DNA of 64,000 bases from Candidatus Latescibacterota bacterium (GTDB lineage Bacteria; Latescibacterota; UBA2968). The notes beneath the pieces are model-generated. The model was not told the DNA's origin, did no database searches, and saw nothing but the letters and a program-made list of their open reading frames with translations. The translations under genes and the position numbers were made by a program. The stretch lies in NCBI GenBank assembly GCA_022821275.1, contig JAJEDY010000021.1:6016-70015 (forward strand), given 5' to 3'. This document shows, one piece after another, positions 9,915 through 64,000 of this stretch. Every line of letters begins with the position of its first letter. Position 1 is the stretch's first letter.

Positions 9915-10088
9915 TGCACTAGCGATGAGATGGAATAAAAAGGTAGCGAAAAATATAGACACGTTTCAGGGGGAAAATTTGACACATTGTAGATGATACA
10001 ACTTGTAATCCCATCCTTATAATCCTACCTTGAATGATTCAATTTTATTCCATTCGACTCAGAAAACGTGTAGCTGAGGCTTAACTCC

Positions 10089-10200
10089 GAAGGCAAGTTT
10101 GACAGGCTGAAGGCACTGCTGCGCGAGATTTTTCAATTCGACCACGGATATCTGGATTTGTCTTACACCGATTATGCATCTGAAAACCATTGCGGAGCCT
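10089..10200 (+). pseudogene. Frameshifted remnant resembling the N-terminus of a type III R-M Mod (DNA methyltransferase) subunit
   Basis: Reads KFDRLKALLREIFQFDHGYLDL then, in another frame, IMHLK; resembles the recalled Mod N-terminal pattern FxxLKxLLxELFQLDxxDLDFGIYRIM. No intact start or continuation. Confidence 0.55.
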
Positions 10201-10248
10201 ACTGGATCGAATCACCGTCAACCTATATTCTGAGGGTTAATATCAAGA

Positions 10249-42740: not shown

Positions 42741-42769
42741 TTGACATCTCAAAAGTTATTTGTTAGCAT
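42741..42769 (+). promoter_or_regulatory. Putative sigma70-type promoter
   Basis: TTGACA (42741) - 17 bp - TAGCAT (42764) with extended TGn, about 50 bp upstream of ATG 42819. Confidence 0.6.
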
Positions 42770-42818
42770 AAATTCAATTTTCCCAAAATGTTCGGCATTC
42801 TTAACAGGAGCCTCCTCG

Positions 42819-45800: not shown

Positions 45801-47672
45801 ACTTATGAAGCCGATGTCGGGCGCATTAGCGCGACATCGGCCGCGGTTGTGCTGGGTATTTCAAATTTGCGAAAGCGCCCCATGCGCACGGGGTTGACGG
45901 CGATTACGCTGACTTTGCTGACTTTTACGACATTGTCTTTTACCTCGGTGCAGACTTCGTTGAAGTTTTACAAATTGCCCCGCGATAACGAGCCGTCGTA
46001 TCAGGGGGCACTCGTGCGCGACCGATCCTGGCGCGGGATGCAAGAATCCGTGCTCAATTATCTCAATAGTGCTTTTGAAGGCCGCGCCGATATTGTGCCG
46101 CGGTCGTGGTATTTATCACAGGTGCGTGGTGAGCGCGCTTATGTGAATTTTTCTCGCGTGACAGAGGCCACTGCCGATATGGGTCCCAAGGAGATTTACG
46201 TCGATTTCGATGTGGGCATTACCACGGGGAAAGACAGTTTTGTCAATGCGCTGTTGGGCCTTACGCCAGACGAACCCAAAATTACCGGGGCGGATCGCTA
46301 TTTGATGAGCGGACGTTGGTTTGAGCCAGGAGAAGAGTTCGTTTGTCTAATACCCAATGATCTGGCCGAGCTTGTCGGTATTTTCCCCGAAGACGCTGGC
46401 ACAGCTAAAATTGAAATGCAGGGACAGGTTTTTACGGTGATTGGTATTCTGGATTCTGAAATGTTTAACAAGTTCAAAGATCTGGACGATGAAAAGCTGA
46501 CCCCTGTTGATACGGTAAAAGAAAAAGACGATTTGGCAGATGCACAGGATCAGGATCCGCGGGTTGTCGCGGCTGCGCCGATAGAGACCTTTACCCACCT
46601 GGAATCGACCAATGTGCTCGTCGTGCCCTATGAGTATATTCGAGATATCGGTGGCGTATTGGCTTCGGTGGCGATTGCGAATTTCAAGGATGAGAGCGGG
46701 CAGCCCAAGTTGGATTTTGTGCCCGACATCGAAGAGTTTATGGCGCGCGTGTCTTTGACGATGTTTGTGGGCAAGGATGATGGTGTAACCGTCTATAGTT
46801 CGATTGGTTCAACGTCGCTTTCTGGATTGGGCAATTTGTTTATTCCGATCTTGATTGCGGCGCTTATTGTGCTCAATACTATGATGGGTGCCGTGTATGA
46901 GCGTTTCCGAGAGATCAGTATTTATTCTTCGGTGGGATTGGCTCCCAATCATATTGCCGCACTTTTCCTCGCGGAGGCCGGCGTATTTGCCACACTCGGT
47001 GCGGTTATGGGATATTTAATTGGACAGGTTCTGGTGCTCATACTTTACAATCAGGGGCTGTTGGGAGGCCTGGAATTGAATTATTCGTCGCTGTCTGCAA
47101 TTTCCGCTACGTTGATAGTGATGGCAACGGTATTTCTCTCGGCGCTTTATCCAGCTAAAAAAGCTGCTGATATGGCCGTGCCCGATGTGACCCGCAAATG
47201 GGAATTCCCCGATCCGGATGGCGATCGGTGGGTATTTGATTTTCCCTTTACAGTGGGCGGTGCTGAGGTATTGGGCATGTACTCTTATTTGACCAGGGTT
47301 TTTGAATCTTATGGCGAGGGATCGGTGGGTGATTTTGTTGCCGATCACGTGAAGTTCTGGTCTGAGGATCACGAGGGAGAACCACAATACAATATTGATC
47401 TGACGGCATGGTTGGCGCCTTATGATCTGGGGATTAGCCAGGAAGTGCAGTTAAAAGCTATTCCAACGGGTGAGCACAATATTTATAAAATTGAAGTGGT
47501 GATCAATCGTTTGAGTGGCGATGTGGCGTCCTGGAAACGGATCAATCGCGGATTTTTAAATGTGTTGAGAAAGCGATTCCTGGTCTGGCGTACAATTCCG
47601 GGTGACCTGAAGTTCAATTATGCAGAAGACGGACGCCGGGTTTTGTCTGGCGAAGTCGCGGCAATAGCATAA
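42819..47672 (+). CDS. Large membrane protein: PA domain + M28 peptidase-like domain + two FtsX-like permease regions
   Basis: SRVPGY.G, LIYGGKG, SAFYD/GAENASG M28-like core; GISNLRKRPMRT; LNTMMGAVYERFREISIYSSVGL, YPAKKAA; AGGAG RBS. Confidence 0.8.
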   Translation: MRKIGTGILWVITILMLSSVTIFNPGQVTDFFVTLFNIKPSIPELKPIEISERDREIRSIAESVTQEDVSQIITDLSGMGSRVPGYVGHRQAFEYVKRHFEQFGLEDIVVEEHTVTVPVDKGASLTLMDTGEEIAIYGFWPNHVQTPSVPSAGISGALIYGGKGSFSELNGKKVEGSVVLMDFDCGQGYLSPRMLGAQAILFYDNGRVTQGQALDKFLPVPVDVPRFWVKKDDALRLLALAQTQSPEVRLTSKMDWEEVPTWNIFATVPGSEDYITEREERKWKDQQIVLSAFYDAISVVPALAPGAENASGLAALLHTARVLKQNPPKYSVTFLATGAHFQGLAGINDFVYRHSRESDHFRDKIPDSLSVAGAYLDGELIPRDSEDFEELIPGSYKIDFRLFIGLDLSSESDQLASFSHGTFNNPNWQTDNYLNNLLAPYADKFDKYMAKVFPGEEARHVDAIAPPKRTWKNFMPIRLGFDSEAVTFVGKEGITLATPSTVRRFVDTPIDRVEHVNMDNLTRQIQTTVAAMMKAGEDPEFFRVSKLKLQDRGHSLRGQVLWFDRNVDFALPRVPVPGGVATYRQPGNVHSCAGVRTLIIDKTTEGPIYDIEKLADDHEGEVDPNVFGEKSKVKETGWFTFDIMRNRFTNRILAYDIDEEGNITSAPDMGTEGDKKFPLTQRYGWWENEMLTVLFKSRSISVFEIIDSSYLSALDFMTVLNDNDTQPIEFGYTYLPGQSTKEGDVTRAAVTFARVDEYTGEAERLKVLMSTGLFGVKYLLINAPQKFLDNPIDKREVNPDILEEARGEGYEPGVIFMPSYQAARDMWVIDDVRMKQLAQFGIENNRLTLLHNSAREALMEARQHLENLDYEGFMAASRRAWGLEARGYPEVMATANDTVRGIIFYFILLLPFSFFCERLLIGASSITARLSWFAGFFIFFFIVLRFVHPAFQLSNSPYIIFLAFVIMALGGVAMVIVVSKFGDEVRKMKQASAGTYEADVGRISATSAAVVLGISNLRKRPMRTGLTAITLTLLTFTTLSFTSVQTSLKFYKLPRDNEPSYQGALVRDRSWRGMQESVLNYLNSAFEGRADIVPRSWYLSQVRGERAYVNFSRVTEATADMGPKEIYVDFDVGITTGKDSFVNALLGLTPDEPKITGADRYLMSGRWFEPGEEFVCLIPNDLAELVGIFPEDAGTAKIEMQGQVFTVIGILDSEMFNKFKDLDDEKLTPVDTVKEKDDLADAQDQDPRVVAAAPIETFTHLESTNVLVVPYEYIRDIGGVLASVAIANFKDESGQPKLDFVPDIEEFMARVSLTMFVGKDDGVTVYSSIGSTSLSGLGNLFIPILIAALIVLNTMMGAVYERFREISIYSSVGLAPNHIAALFLAEAGVFATLGAVMGYLIGQVLVLILYNQGLLGGLELNYSSLSAISATLIVMATVFLSALYPAKKAADMAVPDVTRKWEFPDPDGDRWVFDFPFTVGGAEVLGMYSYLTRVFESYGEGSVGDFVADHVKFWSEDHEGEPQYNIDLTAWLAPYDLGISQEVQLKAIPTGEHNIYKIEVVINRLSGDVASWKRINRGFLNVLRKRFLVWRTIPGDLKFNYAEDGRRVLSGEVAAIA

Positions 47673-54515: not shown

Positions 54516-54534
54516 GGCGAGACGAGGAAGAATT

Positions 54535-54777
54535 ATGAAAATTACCGAGACAAATACCACCATTGGCGCACTGATTGAACGCCTCGAAGCTACGGGAAAA
54601 CCCAGGACGACGAAGGCCCGAGCCTTCATTATTATCGAGGATGGGGGAGCGCAGACACGCGAAGATATCCGAGAGACCGTAGCGCAATTTCGGGCGAGCT
54701 TTAAGGATATACCCTCTGAGGAGATCGAACAAATTATTGGTGAGTCCAGACGGGCAGTAAGAGCGCAAAAATCATGA
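54535..54777 (+). CDS. Putative antitoxin
   Basis: 80 aa, ATGA overlap with the PIN gene, C-terminal EEIEQIIGESRRAVR helix. Confidence 0.7.
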   Translation: MKITETNTTIGALIERLEATGKPRTTKARAFIIIEDGGAQTREDIRETVAQFRASFKDIPSEEIEQIIGESRRAVRAQKS

Positions 54778-55208
54778 CGCGAGTTGTGCTGGATACCAAT
54801 GTATTAATCAGTGCTATCCTGAATCCGCACGGGAGTCCAGGCATTATACTTGATCTGGTCTTTGACCAGAAAGCGTCTCTTTGTCTCTCTGCACCTCTTA
54901 TAGACGAAATTCAGCGCGTCATTCATTATGACAAGATGGTTGATTTGATAAAAAAAGGGGGAAAGACTGTTGAGCAAGCAGGAGAGATCGTAGATAAGAT
55001 TGTTGCAATAGCGGAAGTAGCCGCTGGTCGCAGGGAAGTAAGCCTGATAGATGCCGATCCGGATGATAATATGGTGCTGGGCTGTGCTCTTGAATCCGAG
55101 GCCGATTACATCATCTCTGGAGATCGACATCTCACCGCATTAGGTAATTTTCAAGATATCCCCATTCTCACGCCCAGGGCTTTCCTGGATACGCAGGTTA
55201 ATTCTTGA
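54774..55208 (+). CDS. PIN-domain (VapC-like, PIN_3) toxin
   Basis: VVLDTNVLISA, E, DPDDNMVL.CA, ADYIISGDRHL, ILTP. Confidence 0.92.
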   Translation: MTRVVLDTNVLISAILNPHGSPGIILDLVFDQKASLCLSAPLIDEIQRVIHYDKMVDLIKKGGKTVEQAGEIVDKIVAIAEVAAGRREVSLIDADPDDNMVLGCALESEADYIISGDRHLTALGNFQDIPILTPRAFLDTQVNS

Positions 55209-55325
55209 ATGCCTGACCTTGCTCTGGCTTTCAACGACGAGTTGGCTCAGTCTATATCTGATAGTTTCTTGTCTCATGTATGGAAATTTTGATGTTGTGG
55301 AATAAGGTAAGATAAATTTCTCCGG

Positions 55326-55379
55326 GAGGTTCCATGCATGCCCTGTTCAGACAGCCGGGTATTTGGAACCTCTTTTTTT
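55326..55379 (+). terminator. Intrinsic terminator-like hairpin
   Basis: GAGGTTCCA...TGGAACCTC with internal pairing, followed by T7. Confidence 0.65.
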
Positions 55380-55431: not shown

Positions 55432-57015
55432 ATGCGTGTTTTTCTATTTGTGCATTTCGTGGTGTTCCTATTCCTCAGTCCTGTATTTGCTGAAATAGAT
55501 GTTGCTGTCGTATCTGAAAGCATTGTGCAGGTGCGTGTGTACAAGAATCATAAGATTCTGGCTGAGGGAAGCGGTTTTGTTGTGAATGAAGAGGGGTATG
55601 TACTGACGAACGCTCATCTCTTGGCGGATGCAGAGGGATTGACCGTCCGGTCCCGAAAGACCGGTGCCGAAATCGTGTCACAGCAGATCTTTACCAATCG
55701 GGAATTGAATCTCGCTTTGTTGCGCGTACAGGGTCTGGATTTACCGCCTCTCAACTTGTCCGAACAAGGGGCCGCTGTAGGCCGGGTCGTGGAAACCCTG
55801 AAGATAACTCCTCAGGATAGTATCCAGATTGCTCGTGGGACTATTGGCGCATACCAGGATGTGCCGGGAAAAAAAGTGAGTGATCCCGTGGTACATCTGC
55901 TACAGCACAATGCCATGGTGACTTCCAGAGCATTTGGTATGCCCCTGTTTAATGAGTGCGGGGATGTTGTCGCTATTAACCTGCCAGACCTGGAGAGCGG
56001 ATCCTGGCCGTTTCGAAAGGTTGAACCCAGAGAAGCAATTTTTGCCTTACGCAGCGGCGATATCATTACCGTGCTTAAAGACCGGAAGATTGCACATACA
56101 GTAGTTGAAGAAGAATGCTTGAGTGCTGTTGAACGCGCTCAACGAGATAAAAAAATCGCAGAAGATAGTATCAAAGCAGTAGCACAAGCGGCAAGAGATA
56201 GTGTTAGTGCAGAAAGAGTTGCTCGGTTGGCGGCTGAAAAAGCTGTCAGGGAAAAGCAACAGGAGGCCGAAAACGCAAAAGCTGCTCGGCTGGCTGCCGA
56301 ACGGGCGAAGGCACAGGCGGATTCAGCGAGTAAGGCGGCGGCAGATAGTGTCAAAGTAGCACAAGACAGTATCAACACGGCGCGGCTGGCATTAGAACGA
56401 GAAAAGGCAAGGACCGATTCGTTAAAGAAGGTGGCAGAGGAGCGTATTGCCGCTCAAAACGCAGCAGATAGTCTCGCTGCAGTACATCAGCAGGATCGCG
56501 AAAAGACATCTCAAAGATTGCAATGGGCTATCGTCTCCGGGAGTGCGGTGGTCATTCTGGTACTCCTCGGCTGGTTCATGTTTGCACGCAGGAAGAGGGC
56601 GCGATTGCAAGCGACCGCTTCTCGTTTGAGCGAGGCAGAACAAGAGGCCGAAGCCGCGAGACAAGCCGCAGCACAAGCACCACAGCCCGCGCCTTTCAGA
56701 TGTCTATTAGAAGGCCAGGATAACACAGGCCAACCATTTGCGTTGAGTATTCCAGCATTGGCTCTGTCTTCAGGTGCCACGCTTGGAAGAAGCCCTGCCA
56801 ACGCAGAATTTATTATTGATCACGAATCCGTATCCCGCGAACATATCAAGCTTTTGTATGCCGACGGAAATCTCTATGCAGAGGACCTGGGTAGCACGAA
56901 TGGCACCAGAATCAATGGACGTTTGCTCAATCCGCGTGAACCAGTAGTGTTGCATAACAATGATCAACTCGAGTTGGGGCCTGTTGTTTTTCAGGTGCGT
57001 TTGATGCAGGAGTGA
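55432..57015 (+). CDS. Signal peptide - catalytically degenerate trypsin-like domain - coiled coil - TM - FHA
   Basis: GSGFVV..TNAH, but NLALL (no Asp) and SRAFGMPL (no GNSGG); Ala/Lys/Glu-rich stalk; TM WAIVSGSAVVILVLLGWFMF; FHA LGRS..VSREH..STNGT. Confidence 0.85.
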   Translation: MRVFLFVHFVVFLFLSPVFAEIDVAVVSESIVQVRVYKNHKILAEGSGFVVNEEGYVLTNAHLLADAEGLTVRSRKTGAEIVSQQIFTNRELNLALLRVQGLDLPPLNLSEQGAAVGRVVETLKITPQDSIQIARGTIGAYQDVPGKKVSDPVVHLLQHNAMVTSRAFGMPLFNECGDVVAINLPDLESGSWPFRKVEPREAIFALRSGDIITVLKDRKIAHTVVEEECLSAVERAQRDKKIAEDSIKAVAQAARDSVSAERVARLAAEKAVREKQQEAENAKAARLAAERAKAQADSASKAAADSVKVAQDSINTARLALEREKARTDSLKKVAEERIAAQNAADSLAAVHQQDREKTSQRLQWAIVSGSAVVILVLLGWFMFARRKRARLQATASRLSEAEQEAEAARQAAAQAPQPAPFRCLLEGQDNTGQPFALSIPALALSSGATLGRSPANAEFIIDHESVSREHIKLLYADGNLYAEDLGSTNGTRINGRLLNPREPVVLHNNDQLELGPVVFQVRLMQE

Positions 57016-57018
57016 AAA

Positions 57019-58320
57019 TTGCAACCGATATGCAACTATTGGCGTGTTGTCGGTTTTATTCTCGCGTTTCTGTTTTTTTTGCGTGATGCTGTCGCTGCGC
57101 CAGATTTTGACGCGCTTGAGAAGAGTATTGTGCGTATTGTAACGCAGACAAATCAGGGGATTGGGACGGGTACTGGATTTGTGATCAATGATCGGGGTTA
57201 TATCGCTACGAACGTACACGTTATTGCCGGTGGTAATTTGATCAAAGCAATACCGACAAATTCCAATACCATGTACGATGTTGATGTGATTGCTATGTCC
57301 TATGAACTCGATCTGGCAATCGTACGCGTGCCGGGGATCAATCTACCACCGATTACGCTTTCGCTCGCGCCGTCGAGAAAGGGGCAGAAGGTGTGGGCTA
57401 TTGGTTATCCGGGGGGAGCCGATAGGAACAGACCTGCCCATGATCCAACTGTACAGGATGGTGTTATTGGTAGAATTTTTTCAGGTGCTTGGAAGACCCA
57501 AAAATTCAGGATTATTCAACACAACGCGCCTACGAATCCCGGTAACAGCGGCGGACCTTTACTGGACGACTGCGGAAGGGTGATCGGTGTTAATACGCAA
57601 GCGTCTCTTGTGGTCATTGCCAGCCCATCCGATGGGGTAACGCGGGTGCCGCACGCGGCGGGTATTTACTGGTCTTCTCATATTGAGGAATTGGCAAAGC
57701 TGTTGCGTGAAAATGCAATTTCTTTTCAGTCGGACGGCGATGAGTGTTTAGCGGCTGATTCTACTGGGCATTCTGCGGAGGCGGACCAGGCAAAGAGTCA
57801 AGCAGATGAGGTGAATCAGAAATTTCTTATTTGGGTGATATTATTGGGTGCTGTGGCTGTGGTCGCTCTGATACTTGCTTTGAAGAAACCCCGGCAGCAG
57901 ATCATTCACGCTGCAGACCATATCAGCCTACGCTTCAAAACAAAAGCACCTGCTGTGGCTGTCCAAAAACGAGCACCCGAAAAACTTCCAGGACACGGTC
58001 TGATGCTGACCGGGTTTGACGGTAATGGCAATCCCATTCGCATTGCTTTACCACCAAACAGATTCCCGGGGCAGTATTTGGGGGTTTCATTGGGCAGGCA
58101 TCCCGAGTTGGTGGATGAAATTATCCAGGACCAAAATGTATCCAGACGACATGTGCGAATTGCGGCGCAAGCGGGTCAATTTTATATTGAAGATTTGAAT
58201 TCGCGCAATGGCACGTTTTTGAATCACCACAAATTGTCACCATTTAAGCCAACGCTTTTAGACTATGGGGCTTTGGTGAGATTGGGCGGTTTGGAGTTCA
58301 TGGTTTCAAAACTGGAATAG
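57019..58320 (+). CDS. Signal peptide - trypsin-like serine protease - TM - FHA
   Basis: TNVHV, DLAIV, PGNSGGPL intact triad; TM FLIWVILLGAVAVVALILAL; FHA LGRH..VSRRH..SRNGT. Confidence 0.9.
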   Translation: MQPICNYWRVVGFILAFLFFLRDAVAAPDFDALEKSIVRIVTQTNQGIGTGTGFVINDRGYIATNVHVIAGGNLIKAIPTNSNTMYDVDVIAMSYELDLAIVRVPGINLPPITLSLAPSRKGQKVWAIGYPGGADRNRPAHDPTVQDGVIGRIFSGAWKTQKFRIIQHNAPTNPGNSGGPLLDDCGRVIGVNTQASLVVIASPSDGVTRVPHAAGIYWSSHIEELAKLLRENAISFQSDGDECLAADSTGHSAEADQAKSQADEVNQKFLIWVILLGAVAVVALILALKKPRQQIIHAADHISLRFKTKAPAVAVQKRAPEKLPGHGLMLTGFDGNGNPIRIALPPNRFPGQYLGVSLGRHPELVDEIIQDQNVSRRHVRIAAQAGQFYIEDLNSRNGTFLNHHKLSPFKPTLLDYGALVRLGGLEFMVSKLE

Positions 58321-58333
58321 GGGCATCTTGCAA

Positions 58334-59149
58334 ATGAAAAAACACAGCCGAGAAATTAATATTTTCAGCATGTCTGCGCTCGATCTATTCGCTTCGGCAA
58401 TGGGTGCTTTCATTTTGATTACCATTGTGTTGTTTCCATTTTTTTTAAACAGAGACGAGTCGTTGGAACGCATTGCGGAAGAAAGGGCTAAGTTGGAACA
58501 GGAGAGGATCAGACTGGAACAAGAGAAATCCCAGGTCCCACCCCAAAGTAGCCCGCTTGCAGAGCGGGTTAAAGCACTGGAACAGGAGATTGATGATACA
58601 TCTGTTTTATTGGGTATTAAGACCACAGCAAAGAAGTTTGTAATCGTAGTGGATATGTCAGGTAGTATTTATCGACCTGGTAGTCAGGACTATCGCCAAT
58701 TTATCACATTGTCAGTAAGGGATATGCTTTCTTCTTTTCAATCGGAAATAGAATTGGTTCTGGTTGGTTTTCACGCTCCAAATCGCGGGACGCAATTGCA
58801 CTATTGGCCTGAGAATAGGCATTATTTTCAAGTTAGGAAGAATACGCGAAATCGCGTTATAGCCACCATAAATAACTGGATGAGTCTCGTGGATGGTGGC
58901 ACGCCGACCCGCGAAGCTCTGACGGCAGCACTTGCTCTCAATCCCGAAGAGATTATCCTCTTGAGCGATGGTGCACCCTCGGAAAATTGGCGGTATGTCG
59001 TCAATACCATCACAGTTCAAAATATGAAAAAAATACCGATACACGCTGTCGCTGTTGGCGATTATGTCACAAAACGGGATTTTATCGATTTTCTGGTGCA
59101 GTTGACAGAGCGGAACGGTGGGTATCTCGTAGGTGCCAAACCTGGTTAA
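58334..59149 (+). CDS. ExbD/TolR/MotB-like TM anchor fused to a vWA domain
   Basis: N-terminal REINIFSMSALDLFASAMGAFILITIVLF with intramembrane Asp; short coiled coil; MIDAS DMSGS, GGTPT, LLSDG. Confidence 0.8.
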   Translation: MKKHSREINIFSMSALDLFASAMGAFILITIVLFPFFLNRDESLERIAEERAKLEQERIRLEQEKSQVPPQSSPLAERVKALEQEIDDTSVLLGIKTTAKKFVIVVDMSGSIYRPGSQDYRQFITLSVRDMLSSFQSEIELVLVGFHAPNRGTQLHYWPENRHYFQVRKNTRNRVIATINNWMSLVDGGTPTREALTAALALNPEEIILLSDGAPSENWRYVVNTITVQNMKKIPIHAVAVGDYVTKRDFIDFLVQLTERNGGYLVGAKPG

Positions 59150-59187
59150 GGAGAAGTGTGAAGTGTGAAGGTTGAGAGGATTGCGAA

Positions 59188-59553
59188 ATGTCTAACTTTT
59201 CTACCTATCGAATTGGTCGCGGTTCGGATGTGGATATTCGCATTGACGATAGCACGGTCTCCCGCATTCACGCAGAGTTGGTTGTGACTGCGAAGGGAGC
59301 ATACTATCTGACTGATTGCGGTAGTAGCGGCGGGAGTTATGTTGCGCGAAATGGCGAGTGGGAGGCTATTACACAGGATTTTATCTCTCCAATGGATGCA
59401 ATTCTACTCGGTCGGTATCAGACGACCGCACGGCAACTTATGACGATGGTTAATCAAGGTGGACGGGATATTGTAAGACGCAAGGATGATTTGCCCGAGG
59501 GACCGGTGCGTCGCAATGTAGATACAGGTGAAATTATAGGAGACGAGGATTGA
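59188..59553 (+). CDS. Small FHA domain protein
   Basis: IGRGSDVDI..DSTVSRIHA..TDCGSSGGSY. Confidence 0.88.
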   Translation: MSNFSTYRIGRGSDVDIRIDDSTVSRIHAELVVTAKGAYYLTDCGSSGGSYVARNGEWEAITQDFISPMDAILLGRYQTTARQLMTMVNQGGRDIVRRKDDLPEGPVRRNVDTGEIIGDED

Positions 59554-59554
59554 C

Positions 59555-60340
59555 ATGGCAGCAGGTCAAACAGCAGAGACGAATCAACGCCTCATCGCAT
59601 CTGGCTTCAGTTTGGTAATAGGTGTTGTCCTTATTGCGCTACTGAGTATTGTCTTTGATAATCCCGATTCACAAGTGGGTGCTTTCTTGCTTGACCGCCA
59701 CACGGAAAATTTTCTCTACCCGTTTACGATCCAGAATGTCATGTGGCTGATGTTTTGTCTGGGCTGTGGCGAGTTGTGGGGGCGATTTAATCAGTCCAAT
59801 TTAGAATTGGCACAAATCTCAAAGCGATATCTTCCAGAAGACGATTCGATTATGTTGCGGGCGCAGGACCTGGGTTCTCTCTATCAAAAGATGCGTCCAA
59901 AGGATGGGGAACGGACTTTCTTTTTGCAACGCTTAATCACGCGCTGTATTTTGCAATTTCAGGGGAGCAGATCGGTCAATCAGACCAATTCCCTATTAAA
60001 CTCTTCTCTGGAATTATTTCAGCACGAGCTTGAACTCAAATATACCATGTTGCGGTATCTCGTCTGGCTGATTCCCACAATGGGGTTTATTGGCACGGTT
60101 GTCGGAATCGCCTTTGCGCTGGATTATGCGGCGAGTATTGAAAATCCCCAGGACCCGACACTGCTGGCGGAGATCACCGGGCGATTGGGTGTTGCGTTTT
60201 ATACGACTTTACTCGCTCTGATTCAATCGGCACTGTTGGTTTTTGCACTGCATATCGCGCAGGGAAGAGAGGAGATGGCCTTGAATCAATCAGGCCAGTA
60301 CTGTTTGGATAATTTAATTAACCGACTTTATGAAAAATAG
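59555..60340 (+). CDS. MotA/TolQ/ExbB proton channel family protein
   Basis: IPTMGFIGTVVGI and LGVAFYTTLLAL channel helices; two N-terminal TMs. Confidence 0.9.
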   Translation: MAAGQTAETNQRLIASGFSLVIGVVLIALLSIVFDNPDSQVGAFLLDRHTENFLYPFTIQNVMWLMFCLGCGELWGRFNQSNLELAQISKRYLPEDDSIMLRAQDLGSLYQKMRPKDGERTFFLQRLITRCILQFQGSRSVNQTNSLLNSSLELFQHELELKYTMLRYLVWLIPTMGFIGTVVGIAFALDYAASIENPQDPTLLAEITGRLGVAFYTTLLALIQSALLVFALHIAQGREEMALNQSGQYCLDNLINRLYEK

Positions 60341-60352
60341 GAGGGTAGTGTT

Positions 60353-61003
60353 ATGCCTGTTTATCGTGGACCCGATGGCAAGATTATTGAAGAGAAAACA
60401 AATAAAGGAGGAGATGTGACCCAGCCGACTGATAGGGCACAAAGGCCGATGCCACCGGCACCACCGGGCGGCGATCAAGCCGCCGGTTCAGGGCGTTTGG
60501 ATGCACCTACTCAGAAGATGGATGCGAGTGGTTCTCAATCCCAGGCAATCTCTGAAGAAAAGACCCGGGTTGTAGGAGGCCGTCGCAGGCAGGAAGATCA
60601 GCAGCGTCTGGAAGAACGCGCTGAGAAAGCCGATGGTATGGATGATCCGGTTGTGGGATGGTTGGTTATTGTCGAAGGACCAGGAAAAGGGCGGGCCAGG
60701 CAATTGGGTTATGGTTCTAATTCGATTGGGCGCGGAGAAACTGACCGCGTCAATCTCGATTGCGGTGATGATCAAATTTCGCGTGGCGGACATGCTACTG
60801 TGACCTACGATCCGCGTGGCAGGAAGTTTTATGTGCAGCACGGCGGCGGCACAAATCTAACCTACCTCAACGACCAGCCCGTGCTCATTCCGATTGAACT
60901 GCCCGCACTGAGTCATATTAGCATCGGTAATACGATTCTGCGATTTGTGCCCTTGTGTGGCGATGCATTTGACTGGCAAGATATAGAAGAGAGCGAGGAA
61001 TAG
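60353..61003 (+). CDS. FHA domain protein with disordered N-terminus
   Basis: PVVGWLVIVEGPGKG, SIGRG, DDQISR..HA, TNLTYLN, FVPLCG..FDW; GGAGG RBS. Confidence 0.88.
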   Translation: MPVYRGPDGKIIEEKTNKGGDVTQPTDRAQRPMPPAPPGGDQAAGSGRLDAPTQKMDASGSQSQAISEEKTRVVGGRRRQEDQQRLEERAEKADGMDDPVVGWLVIVEGPGKGRARQLGYGSNSIGRGETDRVNLDCGDDQISRGGHATVTYDPRGRKFYVQHGGGTNLTYLNDQPVLIPIELPALSHISIGNTILRFVPLCGDAFDWQDIEESEE

Positions 61004-61008
61004 CGATT

Positions 61009-61102
61009 GTCATTGCGGCATGATTTTAGCCGCAATCCAGAAGGCTTTGATCGTCATTGTAGCATAGTGATGAATTGCAATCCAAGGATTTTGGTTGTCA
61101 TT
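61009..61102. repeat. Degenerate 44-bp tandem REP-like repeat
   Basis: GTCATT at 61009, 61053 and 61097; unit 1 holds the hairpin ATTGCGGC..GCCGCAAT, and both full units contain GCAATCCA. Confidence 0.6.
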
Positions 61103-61149
61103 TTTTTGACAGCTCCCAAAGATAAAAATACATCTTCAAGGGCAATGGT

Positions 61150-63237
61150 ATGAACGACGCACAACAACCTCTCAATGCTCTACCTCAAGGCCACCGTCTT
61201 CAGGAATACGAACTGGTGCGAGTGCTCGGATTTGGCGGATTTGGCATGACCTATCTCGGCTTTGACCACAATCTGGACAAAGCCGTTGCGATTAAAGAAT
61301 ACTTGCCATCCGATATTGCTGTTCGTACAGGCGATAACAGCGTTGCTCCACAAGCGAGCCAGTTTCGAGGTGATTTTGAGTGGGGATTAGATCGTTTCTT
61401 GGATGAAGCGCGTGCCTTAGCCCGCTTTGACCATCGCCACATTATTAAAATATATCGTTTCTTTGAGGCACACGGCACAGCGTATATCGTGATGGAATAT
61501 GCTGAAGGTGAGACCTTGACAGCGTTTCTGGAACGCAAAGGGACGTTGGAAGAATCTGAACTCAAAGCCATTCTGTATCCGATTCTCGATGGCTTGGAGG
61601 TAGTGCATGGAGCTGATTTTTTGCATCGAGATATAAAGCCGGGCAATATCATCATTCGAGATGAGGACAATTCGCCAGTGTTGTTGGACTTTGGTTCAGC
61701 GCGTCAGGCAATCGGTGCAAGGAGCCGTTCGGTTACGTCGATTATCACGCCGGGTTATGCGCCAATAGAGCAGTATTCAAGTCGGGGTGATCAGGGACCA
61801 TGGACGGATATTTATGCTTTGGGAGGCGTATGTTATCGTGCATTGACTGGTGAAGTGCCTGAAGATGCAACAGATCGTATGCGGGATGATCCACTCATTC
61901 CAGTGTCTGAACGATGTGCTGGTCAAGTGAGTGCTGAGTTTCTTTCTGCAATAGATTGGGCGTTGGCAGTGGATGAAGGGGATCGCCCGCAGGGTATTGC
62001 TGAATGGCGTTCAAGGTTGGAGGGGGAGCAGGTCGTTGATTCCCCACCAATTGAAGAGAGACAGATTTCGGTTACTCCTATTGAAAGGACGAGTACGCTG
62101 TCTGGAGTACCTCAAGGTGTTATACCCGAGTTGGAGCGAAAGAGCAAGAGACGAGGCAAGGTTCTATTGGGTGTTTTAGGCGTGTGTCTGCTCCTTACGG
62201 GTTTGGGCGGATATTTGTGGTGGGCAAAGAAAAATCATGAGGCTGAAATCGTGCGTTATGTGGCGCAGTTTGAAGAAGCATTGGGACGTAAGGATTTCAG
62301 TATGGCGGGTATCTATGTGGATTCGCTACGAGTTGTTGATTCAGATGCGCCTATGTTGTCCGAGTTGGAAGATCGTCTATCAAAGGCACGCCAGGTATCT
62401 GACTTGTTGTCTGGTGCGGCTGAGGACATGGCTGCGGATCGTTTGATGAGTCCTACGGGTCAAAATGCGTGGGAGAAGTACCAATCAGTATTGGAATTGG
62501 AGCCGGAGCATGGGGTTGCGACTGCTGGTCTGGATAGCATCATTGCGCGTTATGTAGTGAAGTTTGAGTCTGCTTTAGAGGATAAGGATTTCACTATGGT
62601 GGATGAGTGTATGACTCAGATTCGAGTAGTTGATTCCAATGCACCTATGTTATCAGAACTGGAAGGTCGTTTATCGGCGTCACGTCAGACGGAGAAGCGA
62701 CGTCAAGAACAGGCGGCTTTAGAAAAGGAAAGACTGCGTCAAGAACAAGAACGGACAGCCTCGGAGAGGCAACGTCCAGAACAGGTAGAGAAACAACGTT
62801 TTATTTCAGATATGGGCCGCGAGCCGTCCCCATTGAGAGTGAATGGCATGGGTGAGACTGATCTACACATCGCAGCGCGTTTGAATCTACCTTTGCTGAC
62901 TCTATCCCTGTTGAAGCAGGACGCTGATGTCAACGCGAAGAACAAAGATGGCTTTACGCCACTACATTTGGCGGCGGTAACAAATGCTCGTGAGGTAGCC
63001 GAGGTATTACTCAGACACGGCGCTGATGTCAACGCGAAGAGCAAAAATGGCTTTACGCCACTACATTTGGCGGCGGTAACAAATGCTCGTGAAGTAGCCG
63101 AGGTATTACTCAGACACGGTGCTGATGTCAACACGAAAACCCAAGATGGTCTATACCTAACCCCACTGCACCTCGCAGTATTGAATGGTGCTTATCAAAC
63201 AGAAGCAGTGTTGCGCCGCTACGGTGGAAAAAGATAA
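61150..63237 (+). CDS. Transmembrane Hanks-type Ser/Thr protein kinase with C-terminal helical repeats and ankyrin repeats
   Basis: LGFGGFG, VAIKEY, HRDIKPGN, DFG, GYAPIE; TM VLLGVLGVCLLLTGLGGYLWW; about 4 ankyrin repeats (GFTPLHLAA..LLRHGADVNAK). Confidence 0.93.
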   Translation: MNDAQQPLNALPQGHRLQEYELVRVLGFGGFGMTYLGFDHNLDKAVAIKEYLPSDIAVRTGDNSVAPQASQFRGDFEWGLDRFLDEARALARFDHRHIIKIYRFFEAHGTAYIVMEYAEGETLTAFLERKGTLEESELKAILYPILDGLEVVHGADFLHRDIKPGNIIIRDEDNSPVLLDFGSARQAIGARSRSVTSIITPGYAPIEQYSSRGDQGPWTDIYALGGVCYRALTGEVPEDATDRMRDDPLIPVSERCAGQVSAEFLSAIDWALAVDEGDRPQGIAEWRSRLEGEQVVDSPPIEERQISVTPIERTSTLSGVPQGVIPELERKSKRRGKVLLGVLGVCLLLTGLGGYLWWAKKNHEAEIVRYVAQFEEALGRKDFSMAGIYVDSLRVVDSDAPMLSELEDRLSKARQVSDLLSGAAEDMAADRLMSPTGQNAWEKYQSVLELEPEHGVATAGLDSIIARYVVKFESALEDKDFTMVDECMTQIRVVDSNAPMLSELEGRLSASRQTEKRRQEQAALEKERLRQEQERTASERQRPEQVEKQRFISDMGREPSPLRVNGMGETDLHIAARLNLPLLTLSLLKQDADVNAKNKDGFTPLHLAAVTNAREVAEVLLRHGADVNAKSKNGFTPLHLAAVTNAREVAEVLLRHGADVNTKTQDGLYLTPLHLAVLNGAYQTEAVLRRYGGKR
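62922..63140 (+). repeat. 99-bp near-identical tandem duplication (ankyrin repeat units)
   Basis: Units start at 62922 and 63021 (CGCTGATGTCAACGCGAAG...), with few differences; partial third copy from about 63120. Confidence 0.9.
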
Positions 63238-63322
63238 AATAAGCTGATTCTTAAAATAATCGGAGATACTATAAACGCAGAATACTACCGAAGAATGAAA
63301 ACAGACAATAACGGGAGAGGTT

Positions 63323-64000
63323 ATGAGCGGAAGACACGAATGCATTGGAATCAATGTGCAGACCAAAGATGGCGATACGCAGTTACACCTTGCGGTGCGA
63401 GAAAATGCTCATAAGAGAGCAGAGGTATTGCTTAGACAAGGTGCCGATCCTAACGCGAAGGATAAATATGGCTCTACGCCACTACATTGGGCAGTGAGGA
63501 ACAAGGCTTCTGAGACAGCCGAGGTATTGTTCAAACATGGTGCTAATCTCAACGCACAGAACAAAGATGGGGTGACGCCACTGCACTGGGCGGTGAGGAT
63601 ACCACCATATTCTTCTGCATTCGCAGAAATTTTGCTTAAACATGGTGCCGATCCTAACGCGAGGGACATATATGGCTCTACGCCGTTGCACAACGCAGCG
63701 TGGAAAAATAATTATGAAGCGGCAGAAGTGTTGCTCAAACATGGAGCAGACCTTAATGCGAAAGACAATCAGGGCCTGATGCCGTTGCACAACGCAATGA
63801 AAAAAAATAATCGTGAAGTAGCAGAAATTTTGCGACGTTACAGCGACCAGATGACAGATTCTGTGAATATCTATCAGCCAGTCACTACGTCTGCAACTAC
63901 AAAAGCAAGGCTGAACAAAGAGTTGTACACTGCGGCAGCGAATAATGCTCATGATATAGTAGAGGTATTGCTGAATCAAGGTGCTGATGTCGATGCCAAG
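63323..64000 (+). CDS. Ankyrin repeat protein, runs off window end
   Basis: Manual translation after GAGAGG RBS: MSGRHECIGINVQTKDGDTQLHLAV..GADPNAKDKYGSTPLHWAV..; at least 5 ankyrin repeats, no stop before 64000. Not in the ORF track. Confidence 0.9.
   Translation, partial: MSGRHECIGINVQTKDGDTQLHLAVRENAHKRAEVLLRQGADPNAKDKYGSTPLHWAVRNKASETAEVLFKHGANLNAQNKDGVTPLHWAVRIPPYSSAFAEILLKHGADPNARDIYGSTPLHNAAWKNNYEAAEVLLKHGADLNAKDNQGLMPLHNAMKKNNREVAEILRRYSDQMTDSVNIYQPVTTSATTKARLNKELYTAAANNAHDIVEVLLNQGADVDAK

What the first reader, a model, noticed from the sequence alone, without database searches (positions are those of the whole stretch)
55432..64000. Candidate new system: MotA/ExbB-type motor + TM-vWA partner + twin trypsin-FHA membrane proteins + FHA adaptors + ankyrin receptor kinase
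Seen: eight co-directional genes; the first six are spaced 1-38 bp apart. In order they are pseudo-trypsin-TM-FHA, trypsin-TM-FHA, TM(Asp)-vWA, FHA, MotA/TolQ/ExbB, FHA, kinase-TM-ankyrin and ankyrin. Established: MotA/TolQ/ExbB subunits pair with a single-TM Asp-bearing subunit to form ion-driven motors (MotAB, TolQR, ExbBD, Zorya ZorAB), and FHA domains bind phosphothreonine written by Hanks kinases. Inference: an envelope-spanning sensor/effector in which the kinase phosphorylates scaffolds, four FHA domains assemble the complex, and the motor controls an extracytoplasmic protease. It could serve anti-phage defence, cell-contact conflict or host interaction. I know of no named system with this composition; there is no TonB/TolA, flagellar, T6SS or ZorCDE gene in the cluster.
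Basis: partly seen in the sequence, partly recalled or inferred. Interest (0 to 1): 0.9.

Follow-up and report, generated by a model that had tools for sequence, protein, structure and literature searches.

The report
Phospho-regulated TolQ-like motor with vWA rotor
A sponge-associated bacterium carries a self-contained gene set, shared by several bacterial phyla, that appears to join an ion-driven membrane motor to periplasmic protease-like proteins and to its own kinase/phosphatase control; no described system has this make-up and its biological role is unknown.

Summary
Eight co-directional genes lie at 55432-64000 with the stated domains.

It is a real, conserved system. Of 64 related loci with full flanks, from at least six phyla, 54 hold the TolQ-like gene, a TM-vWA gene, a trypsin/FHA membrane protein, the g6-type FHA, PP2C and a Hanks kinase. 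Gene order differs between lineages.

In the window's own genome, all four FHA domains and the only PP2C lie in this cluster.

The vWA protein carries an invariant Asp in a very conserved N-terminal helix, and no ExbD/TolR gene is present.

A 2025 paper proposed TM-Asp-vWA partners for TolQ-like pentamers, but its text I read does not mention kinases, FHA domains or trypsin.

No PADLOC system and none of five literature searches matched.

Seventeen of 60 loci hold only catalytically dead trypsin domains, so motor control of a protease is not universal.

The role is unknown. Distribution is patchy and partly horizontal.

The parts
55432..57015 (+). g1 (527 aa). Order: signal peptide, catalytically dead trypsin-fold ectodomain (His-Asn-Phe), long Ala/Lys/Glu-rich helical stalk, TM 366-384, cytoplasmic FHA.
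   Evidence: Pfam Trypsin_2 and FHA. Hydropathy. Among 48 g1-type rows the triad position Ser is Phe in 34 and Ser in 0, and Asp is Asn in 31.
57019..58320 (+). g2 (433 aa). Order: signal peptide, trypsin-fold ectodomain with intact His-Asp-Ser, TM 270-288, cytoplasmic FHA.
   Evidence: Pfam Trypsin_2 1.3e-29 and FHA 1.9e-16. His, Asp and Ser are each present in 44 of 46 g2-type rows. TM.
58328..59149 (+). g3 (273 aa from the TTG; the likely true start is the ATG at 58334). N-terminal MotB/ExbD-like transpore helix with invariant Asp19, two stalk helices (43-69 and 76-90), and a vWA head (92-269) whose MIDAS residues are intact here.
   Evidence: VWA_3. Weak ZorB hits on residues 19-66, E 8.9e-4 and 4.8e-3. 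F13, D19, L20, A22, S23, A24, G26 and F28 are invariant in 47 sequences. AF2 pLDDT 83. vWA fold matches. MIDAS counts.
59188..59553 (+). g4 (121 aa). Soluble FHA protein with a conserved C-terminal PV-x-R...G-x-I-I motif. Its stop lies 1 bp before the g5 start.
   Evidence: FHA 1.3e-13. Motif. Found in 47 of 64 full-flank loci.
59555..60340 (+). g5 (261 aa). TolQ/ExbB-like subunit of a 5:2-type ion-driven motor.
   Evidence: PF01618 3.6e-10. In the AF2 model (pLDDT 82) all of the top 50 PDB fold matches are motor A-subunits, best TolQ at TM 0.56/0.65. P174, G177, G180, T181, G184, T217 and T218 are invariant in 49 sequences.
60353..61003 (+). g6 (216 aa). Order: N-terminal PV-Y-R...G-K-I-I motif, disordered linker with two near-invariant Thr (T53, T71), FHA domain. 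It is the candidate phospho-hub.
   Evidence: FHA 4.2e-7. Conservation and motif. Found in 63 of 64 full-flank loci.
61007..61049 (.). Dispersed palindromic element of about 33 nt (REP-like) in the g6-g7 spacer. It separates the tightly packed core from the kinase genes.
   Evidence: Depth spike and many loose ends at 61007-61042 in all four runs. Sequence. 34 further blastn-short hits in the own genome.
61150..63237 (+). g7 (695 aa). Receptor Hanks kinase: cytoplasmic kinase, TM 338-356, two copies of an unnamed repeat, extracytoplasmic ankyrin repeats.
   Evidence: Pkinase 1.3e-38 and Ank. TM. The VAIK, HRD and DFG motifs are readable in the translation.
63323..64000 (+). g8. Ankyrin-repeat protein, cut by the window end (358 aa in full on L001). 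Lineage-specific accessory.
   Evidence: Ank. Full ORF.

Best explanation
The cluster encodes one self-contained, horizontally mobile, envelope-spanning machine.

Motor:
- The core is a TolQ/ExbB-like pentamer (g5).
- Its central, ion-binding partner is not an ExbD/TolR/MotB protein. It is a dimer of g3: a transpore helix with invariant Asp19, a helical stalk and a periplasmic vWA head.
- Ion flow would turn g3 relative to g5.

Partners:
- Around the motor sit one or two type-I membrane proteins (g1, g2). Their trypsin-fold heads are periplasmic and their FHA tails cytoplasmic. g1 is always catalytically dead. g2 is active where it is present.
- Two soluble FHA proteins (g4, g6) are encoded directly on either side of the motor gene.
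- g4 and g6 share a terminal PV-x-R...G-x-I-I motif that I infer docks them on a common partner, most likely g5.

Control:
- Receptor Hanks kinases with interchangeable ectodomains (ankyrin, FGE-sulfatase, others) would write phosphothreonine marks. The best candidates are T53 and T71 in the g6 linker.
- The four FHA domains would read these marks, and a membrane PP2C would erase them. This would gate assembly or activity.

Output: because the genome holds no FHA or PP2C outside the cluster, and the cluster has no transcription factor, the output is most likely made by the machine itself in the periplasm. It would be binding or pulling by the vWA head on or with the trypsin-fold heads, with cleavage by g2 as an add-on where g2 is present.

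Shown versus inferred:
- Shown: domain content, conserved co-occurrence, residue conservation, folds.
- Inferred: the g3-g5 pairing, the periplasmic location of the vWA head, the phosphosites, docking of the motif, and the output.
For: Co-occurrence:
- A pattern scan matched 488 stretches of genome contigs; 450 encode a g5 relative and the best 80 were kept.
- Among the 64 loci with at least 8 kb on both sides: g6-type FHA 63, kinase 63, TM-vWA 61, PP2C 60, g1/g2-like TM-FHA 58, g4-type FHA 47. All six of g5, g6-type FHA, PP2C, TM-vWA, TM-FHA and kinase are present in 54.
- Gene order differs between lineages while content is kept.
- No further gene family recurs in more than 15 of 80 loci.

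Self-containment:
- In the own genome (97.5% complete), 4 of 4 FHA matches, 1 of 1 PP2C_2 matches and 3 of 7 Pkinase matches lie in the cluster.
- Across the 21 genomes of the genus, all 43 FHA matches lie at g5 loci or at one decayed locus.

Motor:
- PF01618 hit.
- All of the top 50 PDB fold matches are ExbB, TolQ, MotA, PomA or ZorA chains.
- P174, T181, T217 and T218 are invariant.

Partner:
- No ExbD-family match on contig C90, although the genome's canonical exbB/tolQ genes have ExbD neighbours.
- The g3 helix is the best-conserved part of the protein (mean 0.7-0.8 against 0.33-0.52 elsewhere), with invariant Asp19.
- A published proposal covers analogous TM-Asp-vWA/TolQ-like pairs (PMC12204202, section 8).

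FHA proteins:
- The shared motif hit 75 times in 6236 ORFs: 44 at the N-terminus of g6-type proteins, 30 at the C-terminus of g4-type proteins, 1 in a PP2C and 0 in unlabelled ORFs.
- T53 and T71 are at least 90% conserved inside an otherwise variable linker.

A natural trypsin-kinase-ankyrin fusion lies at one related locus (L008).
Against: - There is no experimental evidence of any kind.
- Sequence similarity of the g3 helix to MotB/ZorB models is marginal (E 8.9e-4 and 4.8e-3). g5 matches solved motors only at E about 0.1 by sequence, and no fold match reaches E 1e-3.
- The positive-inside rule does not settle the orientation of g3: K/R counts are 3 before and 3 after the helix.
- MIDAS residues are kept in fewer than half of the orthologues: S111 in 32, S113 in 36 and T192 in 33 of 76 rows. 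Metal-dependent ligand binding is therefore not universal.
- 17 of 60 loci have no catalytically intact trypsin domain.
- The g4-type FHA was not found in 17 of 64 loci, and 10 of 64 loci lack one or more core parts within 10 kb.
- The TM helices of g1 and g2 are not specially conserved, and their linkers hold no invariant Thr.
- No phosphosite, docking contact or stoichiometry has been shown.
Confidence: 0.55

Rival explanations
1. Zorya-like anti-phage or conflict sensor. The motor and its periplasmic heads detect a breach or foreign structure in the envelope. The signal then passes inward through FHA, kinase and PP2C, and the protease (or an effector encoded elsewhere) halts infection or kills the cell.
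For: - Patchy, accessory distribution: 35 of 168 genomes of the phylum and 9 of 20 other genomes of the genus, many of which are complete single contigs lacking it.
- Some cross-phylum transfer: phylum labels need at least 10 changes on the g5 tree where 6 is the minimum.
- Two or three copies occur in some genomes.
- The kinase ectodomains are swappable.
- Toxin-antitoxin-type neighbours are present: PIN upstream and HipA_C downstream.
- Weak ZorA and ZorB hits.
Against: - No PADLOC v2 system matches. The kinase and trypsin hits there are generic domain matches.
- There is no nuclease, NADase, pore-former or ZorC/D-like effector.
- g5 is very conserved, at 54-96% identity across phyla, which is unusual for defence proteins.
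- g5 is 261 aa and lacks a ZorA-type long tail.
- The protease is dead or absent in 17 of 60 loci.
Confidence: 0.2
2. A membrane-anchored FHA-vWA phospho-switch of the ArnA/ArnB or Deinococcus DRA0331-0334 type. The g3 helix is only an anchor and the vWA head is cytoplasmic. The FHA proteins bind the head in a phosphorylation-dependent way. The TolQ-like protein is a separate channel and not a rotary partner of g3.
For: - vWA + kinase + FHA + PP2C operons exist without any motor. The abstract start in the listing (bioRxiv 10.64898/2026.01.23.701218) names DRA0331-0334.
- The ArnA-ArnB complex is phosphorylation-driven (PMC12852372, abstract start).
- The orientation of g3 is not fixed by charge counts.
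Against: - The helix, not the vWA domain, is the most conserved part of g3 and carries an invariant Asp. A plain anchor would not need that.
- g5 has no other candidate central subunit in 80 loci.
- A published model gives analogous proteins a periplasmic vWA head.
- The trypsin heads are periplasmic behind signal peptides, so the system has a periplasmic side.
Confidence: 0.08
3. Sponge- or coral-host interaction device. The ankyrin-bearing kinase and ankyrin protein engage host factors, and the rest of the cluster serves that symbiosis.
For: - Runs labelled sponge metagenome hold the stretch: X2 0.57 and X3 0.44 of the sampled words, and X1 1.00, which may be the source.
- Ankyrin repeats sit on g7 and g8.
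- 24 of 80 loci have a kinase-Ank.
Against: - Many loci lack ankyrin and carry FGE-sulfatase kinases instead (21 of 80).
- Their record titles name free-living or other lineages, such as SAR86, Pseudohongiella, Binatia, Vicinamibacterales and Parabeggiatoa.
- Ankyrin is therefore a lineage add-on and not the core.
Confidence: 0.1
4. Chance neighbourhood of unrelated genes.
For: None beyond the 146-bp and 85-bp gaps and a dispersed repeat between g6 and the kinase genes.
Against: - 54 of 64 loci keep all six parts although their order is shuffled.
- All FHA and PP2C genes of the genome are in the cluster.
Confidence: 0.01

Closest known systems
TolQ-TolR and ExbB-ExbD 5:2 motors
   Same: g5 has the TolQ/ExbB fold (8vlw_A TM 0.56/0.65, rmsd 3.7 A; 9ddn_C 0.57/0.67), a PF01618 match and invariant Thr/Pro/Gly in the last two TM helices. 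Its partner has a TM Asp near the N-terminal end of its helix.
   Different: - There is no ExbD/TolR-family partner and no TolA, TonB, TolB or Pal in the cluster.
- The partner ends in a stalk and a vWA head.
- Sequence similarity to solved motors is only E about 0.1.
- NCBIfam has no model for g5.
TolQ-like pentamers with TM-Asp ('TPH') vWA partners, proposed in Mol Biol Evol 2025 (PMC12204202; section 8 and passages read)
   Same: A TolQ-like gene lies next to a TM-vWA gene with no tolR/exbD. There is a conserved Asp in the helix, and the vWA dimer is proposed to be the central rotating subunit.
   Different: - The paper describes mostly heterologous pairs of vWA genes in Proteobacteria and Verrucomicrobia, seeded from Idiomarina. 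Here one vWA gene is the rule.
- Its text does not mention kinase or trypsin, and mentions FHA only as FhaC.
- I could not tell whether the two families are orthologous. No Idiomarina protein was named among the best 120 of 681 hits to the g3 helix.
- Its figure 4c and supplements were not visible to me and may show neighbouring genes.
Zorya ZorAB
   Same: A MotAB-type motor used for something other than motility or import. Weak PADLOC hits: ZorA2 E 2.9e-4 to g5, and ZorB3 8.9e-4 and ZorB1 4.8e-3 to g3.
   Different: No ZorC/D/E. g5 has no long cytoplasmic tail. g3 has a vWA head instead of a peptidoglycan-binding domain. ZorA ranks below TolQ and ExbB in fold (8vvn_C, rank 37).
Threonine-phosphorylation control of type VI secretion (PpkA kinase, PppA PP2C, Fha1; names recalled)
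   Same: A Hanks kinase, PP2C and FHA trio gates assembly of an envelope machine. The FHA domains give sub-threshold TagH hits (TIGR03354, 33.6 bits against a cut-off of 120).
   Different: There are no T6SS structural genes. Here there are four FHA domains, two of them on proteins with periplasmic heads.
Agl-Glt gliding machinery of Myxococcus (TolQR-like motor with FHA-bearing GltG; recalled; only the listing and abstract start of PMC11761067 were seen)
   Same: A TolQ-like motor is combined with a membrane protein that carries a cytoplasmic FHA domain and a periplasmic domain. There are weak NF033760 GltG hits on the FHA domains.
   Different: - The hits are far below cut-off (14.9 and 30.9 bits against 650).
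- g1 and g2 have the opposite membrane orientation: head first, FHA last.
- There is no TonB-like domain, no other Glt genes, and no kinase or PP2C in that system as far as I recall.
MamE/MamO active/dead trypsin-like pair of magnetosomes (functional details recalled)
   Same: An active HtrA-like protease is paired with a degenerate paralogue. g2 hits MamE (1e-13) and g1 hits MamO (5.1e-9), both far below cut-off.
   Different: There are no PDZ, cytochrome or transporter domains. The FHA tails are unique to this system. The resemblance is of design and does not indicate family membership.

Membership tests
MotA/TolQ/ExbB motor A-subunit (g5) | Match to PF01618 above the gathering score | tested here: met
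   40.1 bits against a cut-off of 22.9; 41.7 bits in the genome scan.
MotA/TolQ/ExbB motor A-subunit (g5) | Fold of solved A-subunits | tested here: met
   All of the top 50 Foldseek PDB hits are ExbB, TolQ, MotA, PomA or ZorA; probability 0.98-1.00; best TM 0.57/0.67. The E-values are only 2.8e-3 or weaker.
MotA/TolQ/ExbB motor A-subunit (g5) | Conserved Thr/Pro/Gly lining the last two TM helices | tested here: met
   P174, G177, G180, T181, G184, T217 and T218 are invariant in 49 sequences. Their equivalence to the ExbB/TolQ Thr ring is by position and recall, not by structural superposition.
5:2 motor (g5 with g3) | Central dimeric subunit with a TM Asp | tested here: met
   Asp19 is present in 73 of 76 rows, with the other 3 rows gapped. 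It is invariant in 47 sequences.
5:2 motor (g5 with g3) | Physical 5:2 complex | not testable with these tools
   The full stoichiometry exceeds the size limit of the complex tool; see Tried and rejected.
Ton/Tol systems | ExbD/TolR-family partner and a TonB/TolA transducer in the operon | tested here: not met
   The three PF02472 matches of the genome are on C73 and C77, none on C90. There is no TonB or TolA domain.
Zorya | ZorA with a long tail, ZorB with a PG-binding domain, and ZorC/D or ZorE/F/G | tested here: not met
   Only marginal ZorA and ZorB hits and no other Zor protein. g5 is 261 aa against a ZorA2 model of 505 positions.
TPH-vWA/TolQ-like motors of PMC12204202 | TolQ-like gene next to a TM-vWA gene, no tolR/exbD, conserved TM Asp | tested here: met
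TPH-vWA/TolQ-like motors of PMC12204202 | Heterologous pair of vWA genes; orthology to the Idiomarina seed | tested here: inconclusive
   Most loci have one TM-vWA gene, and two are seen in L032, L034 and L074, for example. Orthology to the seed could not be checked (the supplements are closed).
HtrA/DegP/DegS proteases (g1, g2) | Full-length equivalog score; PDZ domain | tested here: not met
   Best scores are 86.8 bits against cut-offs of 416-470. There is no PDZ domain.
T6SS threonine-phosphorylation pathway | TagH/Fha with T6SS core genes | tested here: not met
   TIGR03354 scores 33.6 and 22.1 bits against a cut-off of 120. No T6SS genes are present.
Known anti-phage systems (PADLOC v2.0.0) | Specific model matches that make up a system | tested here: not met
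   Only generic kinase, trypsin and ankyrin domain hits. The database dates from 2023.

The most novel reading that the evidence does not exclude
This would be a new class of bacterial envelope machine: an ion-driven 5:2 rotary motor switched on and off by its own eukaryote-like Ser/Thr phospho-signalling. Its rotor carries a vWA head that does mechanical work in the ATP-free periplasm. It would pull on or present ligands to a dead/active trypsin-fold pair, which amounts to a proton-powered periplasmic 'unfoldase-protease' or mechanosensor. The machine moves between phyla as a cassette and is re-aimed by swapping the kinase ectodomain (ankyrin in sponge symbionts, FGE-sulfatase elsewhere).
Probability: 0.3. 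Interest if true: 0.9.

Novelty: new variant of a known kind. Interest (0 to 1): 0.74.

Why it matters
Only a handful of uses of 5:2 ion-driven motors are understood: flagella, Ton, Tol, gliding/T9SS and Zorya. This cluster would add one whose accessory set has no counterpart. It has four phosphothreonine readers, receptor kinases, a phosphatase, a vWA-headed central subunit and trypsin-fold membrane proteins.

The system is tractable. The phospho-signalling parts occur nowhere else in the genome, so writer, reader, eraser and target are probably all encoded in 8-11 adjacent genes. That could make it a clean model for how Ser/Thr phosphorylation gates a membrane machine and how proton-motive force is used for work in the periplasm.

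Its patchy, cross-phylum spread and its swappable sensor domains suggest an adaptive accessory role that is worth testing. Candidates are defence, competition, and host or surface interaction.

Tried and rejected
Complex prediction. I asked for g5 x3 with g3 residues 1-65 x2, a non-native stoichiometry forced by the size limit. The answer was 'no answer': ipSAE 0.11 and 0.12 against a mark of 0.32, and the controls were not run. I count this neither for nor against binding.

Expression. Contigs assembled from three metatranscriptomic libraries (X4, X8, X20; two studies) lie on much of g1-g7 at 90-99% likeness. For example, X4 pieces lie on 55468-58504, 59565-61581 and 63251-63925. Only contigs were available, and the tool warns that DNA can be present in RNA libraries. 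I therefore do not claim transcription, make nothing of parts without cover, and name no habitat from shares under 0.2.

Sequence search of solved structures:
- The g5 profile gave only E about 0.1 to PomA, TolQ and MotA.
- The g3 profile gave coiled-coil noise and a TROVE vWA at E 0.02.

Other checks:
- The g3 helix search could not tell whether the Idiomarina family of PMC12204202 is the same family.
- An apparent FHA-MotA fusion protein (P0029, 384 aa) has a linker that aligns to nothing and looks like out-of-frame translation. I rejected it as evidence of a fusion.
- I looked for conserved Thr in the g1 and g2 linkers and for special conservation of their TM helices, and found neither.
- I looked for further conserved genes in the 80 loci and found none in more than 15.
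- I checked the own genome's two other atypical MotA_ExbB loci (C57, C25). They have no vWA neighbour by reading the ORF starts, and I did not follow this further.
- Literature searches found no paper describing this gene set. The library does not hold most subscription journals, and supplements were closed, so Figure 4c and the supplement of PMC12204202 could bear on the novelty claim.

Caveats on counts:
- Labels come from single-sequence phmmer with the window's own domains at E 1e-4 on raw ORFs of at least 70 aa. Divergent parts can therefore be missed, and 'not found' does not mean absent.
- 16 of 80 loci with less than 8 kb on one side were left out of the 64-locus counts. The all-80 counts were FHA6 77, PP2C 73, kinase 73, TM-vWA 68, Tryp-FHA 59 and FHA4 58.
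- g1-type and g2-type rows were split by which window trypsin domain scored higher. That scoring includes the three triad positions among about 180.

Full report
**What is there**

The window's last 8.6 kb holds eight co-directional ORFs, with the domains below from Pfam and a hydropathy scan.

| Gene | Coordinates | Content |
|---|---|---|
| g1 | 55432-57015 | signal peptide, trypsin fold, long helical stalk, TM, FHA |
| g2 | 57019-58320 | signal peptide, trypsin fold, TM, FHA |
| g3 | 58328/58334-59149 | N-terminal TM helix, helical stalk, vWA |
| g4 | 59188-59553 | FHA |
| g5 | 59555-60340 | MotA_ExbB |
| g6 | 60353-61003 | disordered N-terminal part, FHA |
| g7 | 61150-63237 | Hanks kinase, TM, two unnamed repeats, ankyrin |
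| g8 | 63323 onward | ankyrin |

- The window is G000:C90:6016-70015. On the rest of the contig (L001) the cluster continues. g8 ends at 358 aa. It is followed by a second kinase with a C-terminal TM segment (484 aa), a membrane-anchored PP2C (396 aa) and a kinase-TM-FGE-sulfatase protein (734 aa).
- After those comes a HipA_C gene on the other strand, then an AAA ATPase and an enolase-family gene.
- Upstream are a PIN gene, an oxidoreductase fragment and a DUF255 thioredoxin-like gene. Contigs of related strains join across the PIN gene, so it is an insertion here.
- The system therefore has about eleven genes.

**Is it one system?**

- g5 has many close relatives. A search returned 2188 proteins at E<=1e-3, and the best 120 are 55-95% identical.
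- An exhaustive search of 1.84 billion cluster representatives gave 2439 hits at E<=1e-3, 803 at 1e-10 and 145 at 1e-30.
- A pattern scan of one genome per species matched 488 stretches; 450 encode a relative. The 80 best were fetched with up to 10 kb on each side.
- Their record titles name Latescibacterota (the nearest at 96%), Gammaproteobacteria (SAR86, Pseudohongiella, Thiotrichaceae, Azotimanducaceae and others), Alphaproteobacteria, Acidobacteriota, Binatia, Rhodothermales, Gemmatimonadota and one Acidimicrobiaceae bin.
- I labelled all ORFs of these loci with the window's own domains.

In the 64 loci with at least 8 kb on both sides, the parts were found as follows.

| Part | Loci (of 64) |
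|---|---|
| g6-type FHA | 63 |
| Hanks kinase | 63 |
| TM-vWA | 61 |
| PP2C | 60 |
| g1/g2-like TM-FHA protein | 58 |
| g4-type FHA | 47 |
| All of g5, g6-type FHA, PP2C, TM-vWA, TM-FHA and kinase | 54 |

- Gene order is not fixed. Latescibacterota have trypsin, trypsin, vWA, FHA, motor, FHA, PP2C, kinase. Many Gammaproteobacteria and Binatia have FHA, motor, FHA, PP2C, trypsin, trypsin, vWA, kinase. Kept content with shuffled order is the classical sign of functional linkage.
- The run FHA(g4)-motor-FHA(g6)-PP2C is the most stable part.
- No other gene family recurs in more than 15 of 80 loci.

**Self-containment**

- In the window's genome (97.5% complete) all four Pfam FHA matches and the only PP2C_2 match lie in this cluster, as do 3 of 7 Pkinase matches.
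- Its four other MotA_ExbB loci have no FHA, PP2C or kinase within 10 kb.
- Across the 21 genomes of the genus, g5 is present in 10 and FHA domains in 11. All 43 FHA matches lie at g5 loci, apart from those in G081.
- The G081 locus is a decayed copy. g5 is reduced to its last ~107 residues, there is no TM-vWA, and several kinase-FGE genes are each preceded by a scrap of the g5 3' end.
- Writers, readers and eraser of phosphothreonine therefore come and go with the motor, which argues that their targets are inside the system.

**The motor pair**

- The g5 AF2 model (pLDDT 82) matches only A-subunits of 5:2 motors in the PDB. TolQ and ExbB are best (TM 0.56-0.57 by query and 0.65-0.67 by target), followed by MotA, ZorA and PomA. 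Foldseek E-values are modest, at 2.8e-3 at best. Sequence similarity to solved chains is marginal.
- In 49 orthologues P174, G177, G180, T181, G184, T217 and T218 and the whole C-terminal tail are invariant.
- The genome's canonical exbB/tolQ genes have ExbD-family neighbours. This cluster has none.
- g3 begins with a helix that is the best-conserved part of the protein. Asp19 is present in 73 of 76 rows, and the other 3 are gapped fragments. F13, D19, L20, A22, S23, A24, G26 and F28 are invariant in 47 sequences.
- PADLOC's ZorB/MotB models touch this helix weakly (E 8.9e-4 and 4.8e-3).
- The g3 model (pLDDT 83) shows the helix at 16-39, two stalk helices and a vWA domain. The fold search confirms the vWA fold with matches to ITIH1, the CLCA1 VWA domain, Rpn10, integrin I-domains and BatB.
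- MIDAS residues are intact in the window's g3 but are kept in only about 32-36 of 76 orthologues.
- A 2025 paper (PMC12204202, section 8) independently proposed that TM-Asp-vWA proteins replace TolR/ExbD inside TolQ-like pentamers. This is a precedent for the pairing. The paper's text says nothing about kinases or trypsin.

**The periplasmic heads**

- g2-type proteins keep His, Asp and Ser, each in 44 of 46 rows.
- g1-type proteins are conserved pseudo-proteases. At the Ser position they have Phe in 34 of 48 rows and Ser in none. At the Asp position they have Asn in 31 of 48 rows.
- Of 60 loci with any such protein, 43 have an intact triad, 32 have both kinds and 17 have only dead ones.
- The dead head is thus the constant part and the active protease an option.
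- One related locus encodes a trypsin-kinase-ankyrin fusion of 1029 aa. This ties the trypsin head directly to the kinase module.

**The cytoplasmic side**

- The extreme N-terminus of g6 and the extreme C-terminus of g4 carry the same short motif (PV-x-R, a few residues, G-x-I-I).
- A regular expression for the motif hit 75 times in 6236 ORFs: 44 in g6-type proteins, 30 in g4-type proteins, 1 in a PP2C and none elsewhere.
- g6 also has two Thr residues (T53, T71) that are at least 90% conserved in an otherwise variable linker. They are my candidate phospho-acceptors.
- The cytoplasmic loops of g5 hold no invariant Thr, and neither do the g1 and g2 linkers.
- The window's kinases show the usual VAIK, HRD and DFG motifs in their translations.

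**Distribution**

- The system is accessory. It is present in 35 of 168 genomes of the phylum and 9 of 20 other genomes of the genus. Several complete single-contig genomes lack it.
- Some genomes have two or three copies.
- On a g5 tree the phylum labels cluster but need at least 10 changes where 6 is the minimum. One example is a well-supported clade of seven Gammaproteobacteria inside a mainly Latescibacterota group. Bins can be mislabelled, so this shows some transfer and does not show its direction.
- Runs labelled sponge metagenome hold the stretch.

**How it most likely works**

See Best explanation for the model. The architecture rests on the evidence above: one machine, a TolQ-like motor with g3 as its central subunit, periplasmic trypsin-fold and vWA heads, and cytoplasmic FHA/kinase/PP2C control. 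The direction of information flow, the phosphosites, the docking role of the shared motif and the output are inference.

I prefer an output in the periplasm for three reasons:
- The phospho-signalling is private to the cluster.
- No DNA-binding or cytoplasmic effector gene is conserved with it.
- The only catalytic or adhesive parts besides the kinase and phosphatase face the periplasm.

**Comparison and novelty**

- It works like a Ton/Tol/Mot/Zor-type motor, but it fails the membership tests for each of those systems (see Membership tests).
- It shares its motor logic with the TPH-vWA proposal of 2025.
- It shares its control logic with the T6SS threonine-phosphorylation pathway and with motor-less vWA/FHA/kinase/PP2C operons (listing).
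- Its active/dead protease pairing resembles MamE/MamO.
- I found no description of the combination in PADLOC v2 or in five full-text searches. The limits of those searches are stated in Tried and rejected.
- I therefore rate it a new variant of a known kind, the 5:2 motor systems, of high but not top interest. The conservation evidence is strong and the parts list is striking. The motor pairing has a published precedent, and the biological role is still open.

Noticed in passing
window 61007-61049 (g6-g7 spacer): A palindromic element of about 33 nt, followed by a second degenerate copy. It has 34 further short-blastn hits across the own genome. In all four laid runs it shows a depth spike and many different flanks, so it is a dispersed REP-like repeat common in these metagenomes.
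   Followed up: partly
window 54516-55339 (PIN gene 54774-55208): Contigs of related strains in runs X8 and X20 join 54516 to 55291 or 55339 and skip the PIN-domain gene. It is therefore a strain-specific insertion just upstream of the cluster.
   Followed up: partly
L082 (G081:C1:4212000-4231000): A decayed copy of the system in a genome of the same genus. g5 is cut to its last ~107 residues and the TM-vWA gene is missing. Five or six kinase-FGE-sulfatase genes are present, several preceded by a ~30-residue scrap of the g5 C-terminus, as if they had been duplicated by recombination at the g5 3' end.
   Followed up: partly
L008:15671-18760: A single 1029-aa ORF joins Trypsin_2 (53-199), Pkinase (317-543) and ankyrin repeats (from about 700). 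It is a natural fusion of the trypsin head with the receptor kinase at a related locus.
   Followed up: partly
window 42741-47672: A 1643-aa ORF with a Peptidase_M28 domain and an FtsX-like permease C-terminal domain, followed by a 684-aa ORF with no Pfam match. Unusual architecture, not examined further.
   Followed up: no
L001:7854-8891 (-) and 9462-11102 (+), just beyond the cluster: A HipA_C kinase-like gene and an AAA_22 ATPase flank the downstream end. Together with the upstream PIN gene, the cluster sits among toxin-antitoxin-type or mobile genes.
   Followed up: no
G000:C57:88218-90042: Another atypical MotA_ExbB protein (430 aa) is followed by a 176-aa protein whose N-terminal hydrophobic helix holds an Asp. 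It may be a further non-canonical motor pair in the same genome.
   Followed up: no
g7 residues about 360-560 (window 62230-62830) and homologous parts of the kinase-FGE proteins: A repeat of about 100 residues with no Pfam match lies between the TM helix and the ankyrin or FGE-sulfatase ectodomain of the cluster's kinases. It recurs in kinases of many related loci (label 'g7mid').
   Followed up: no
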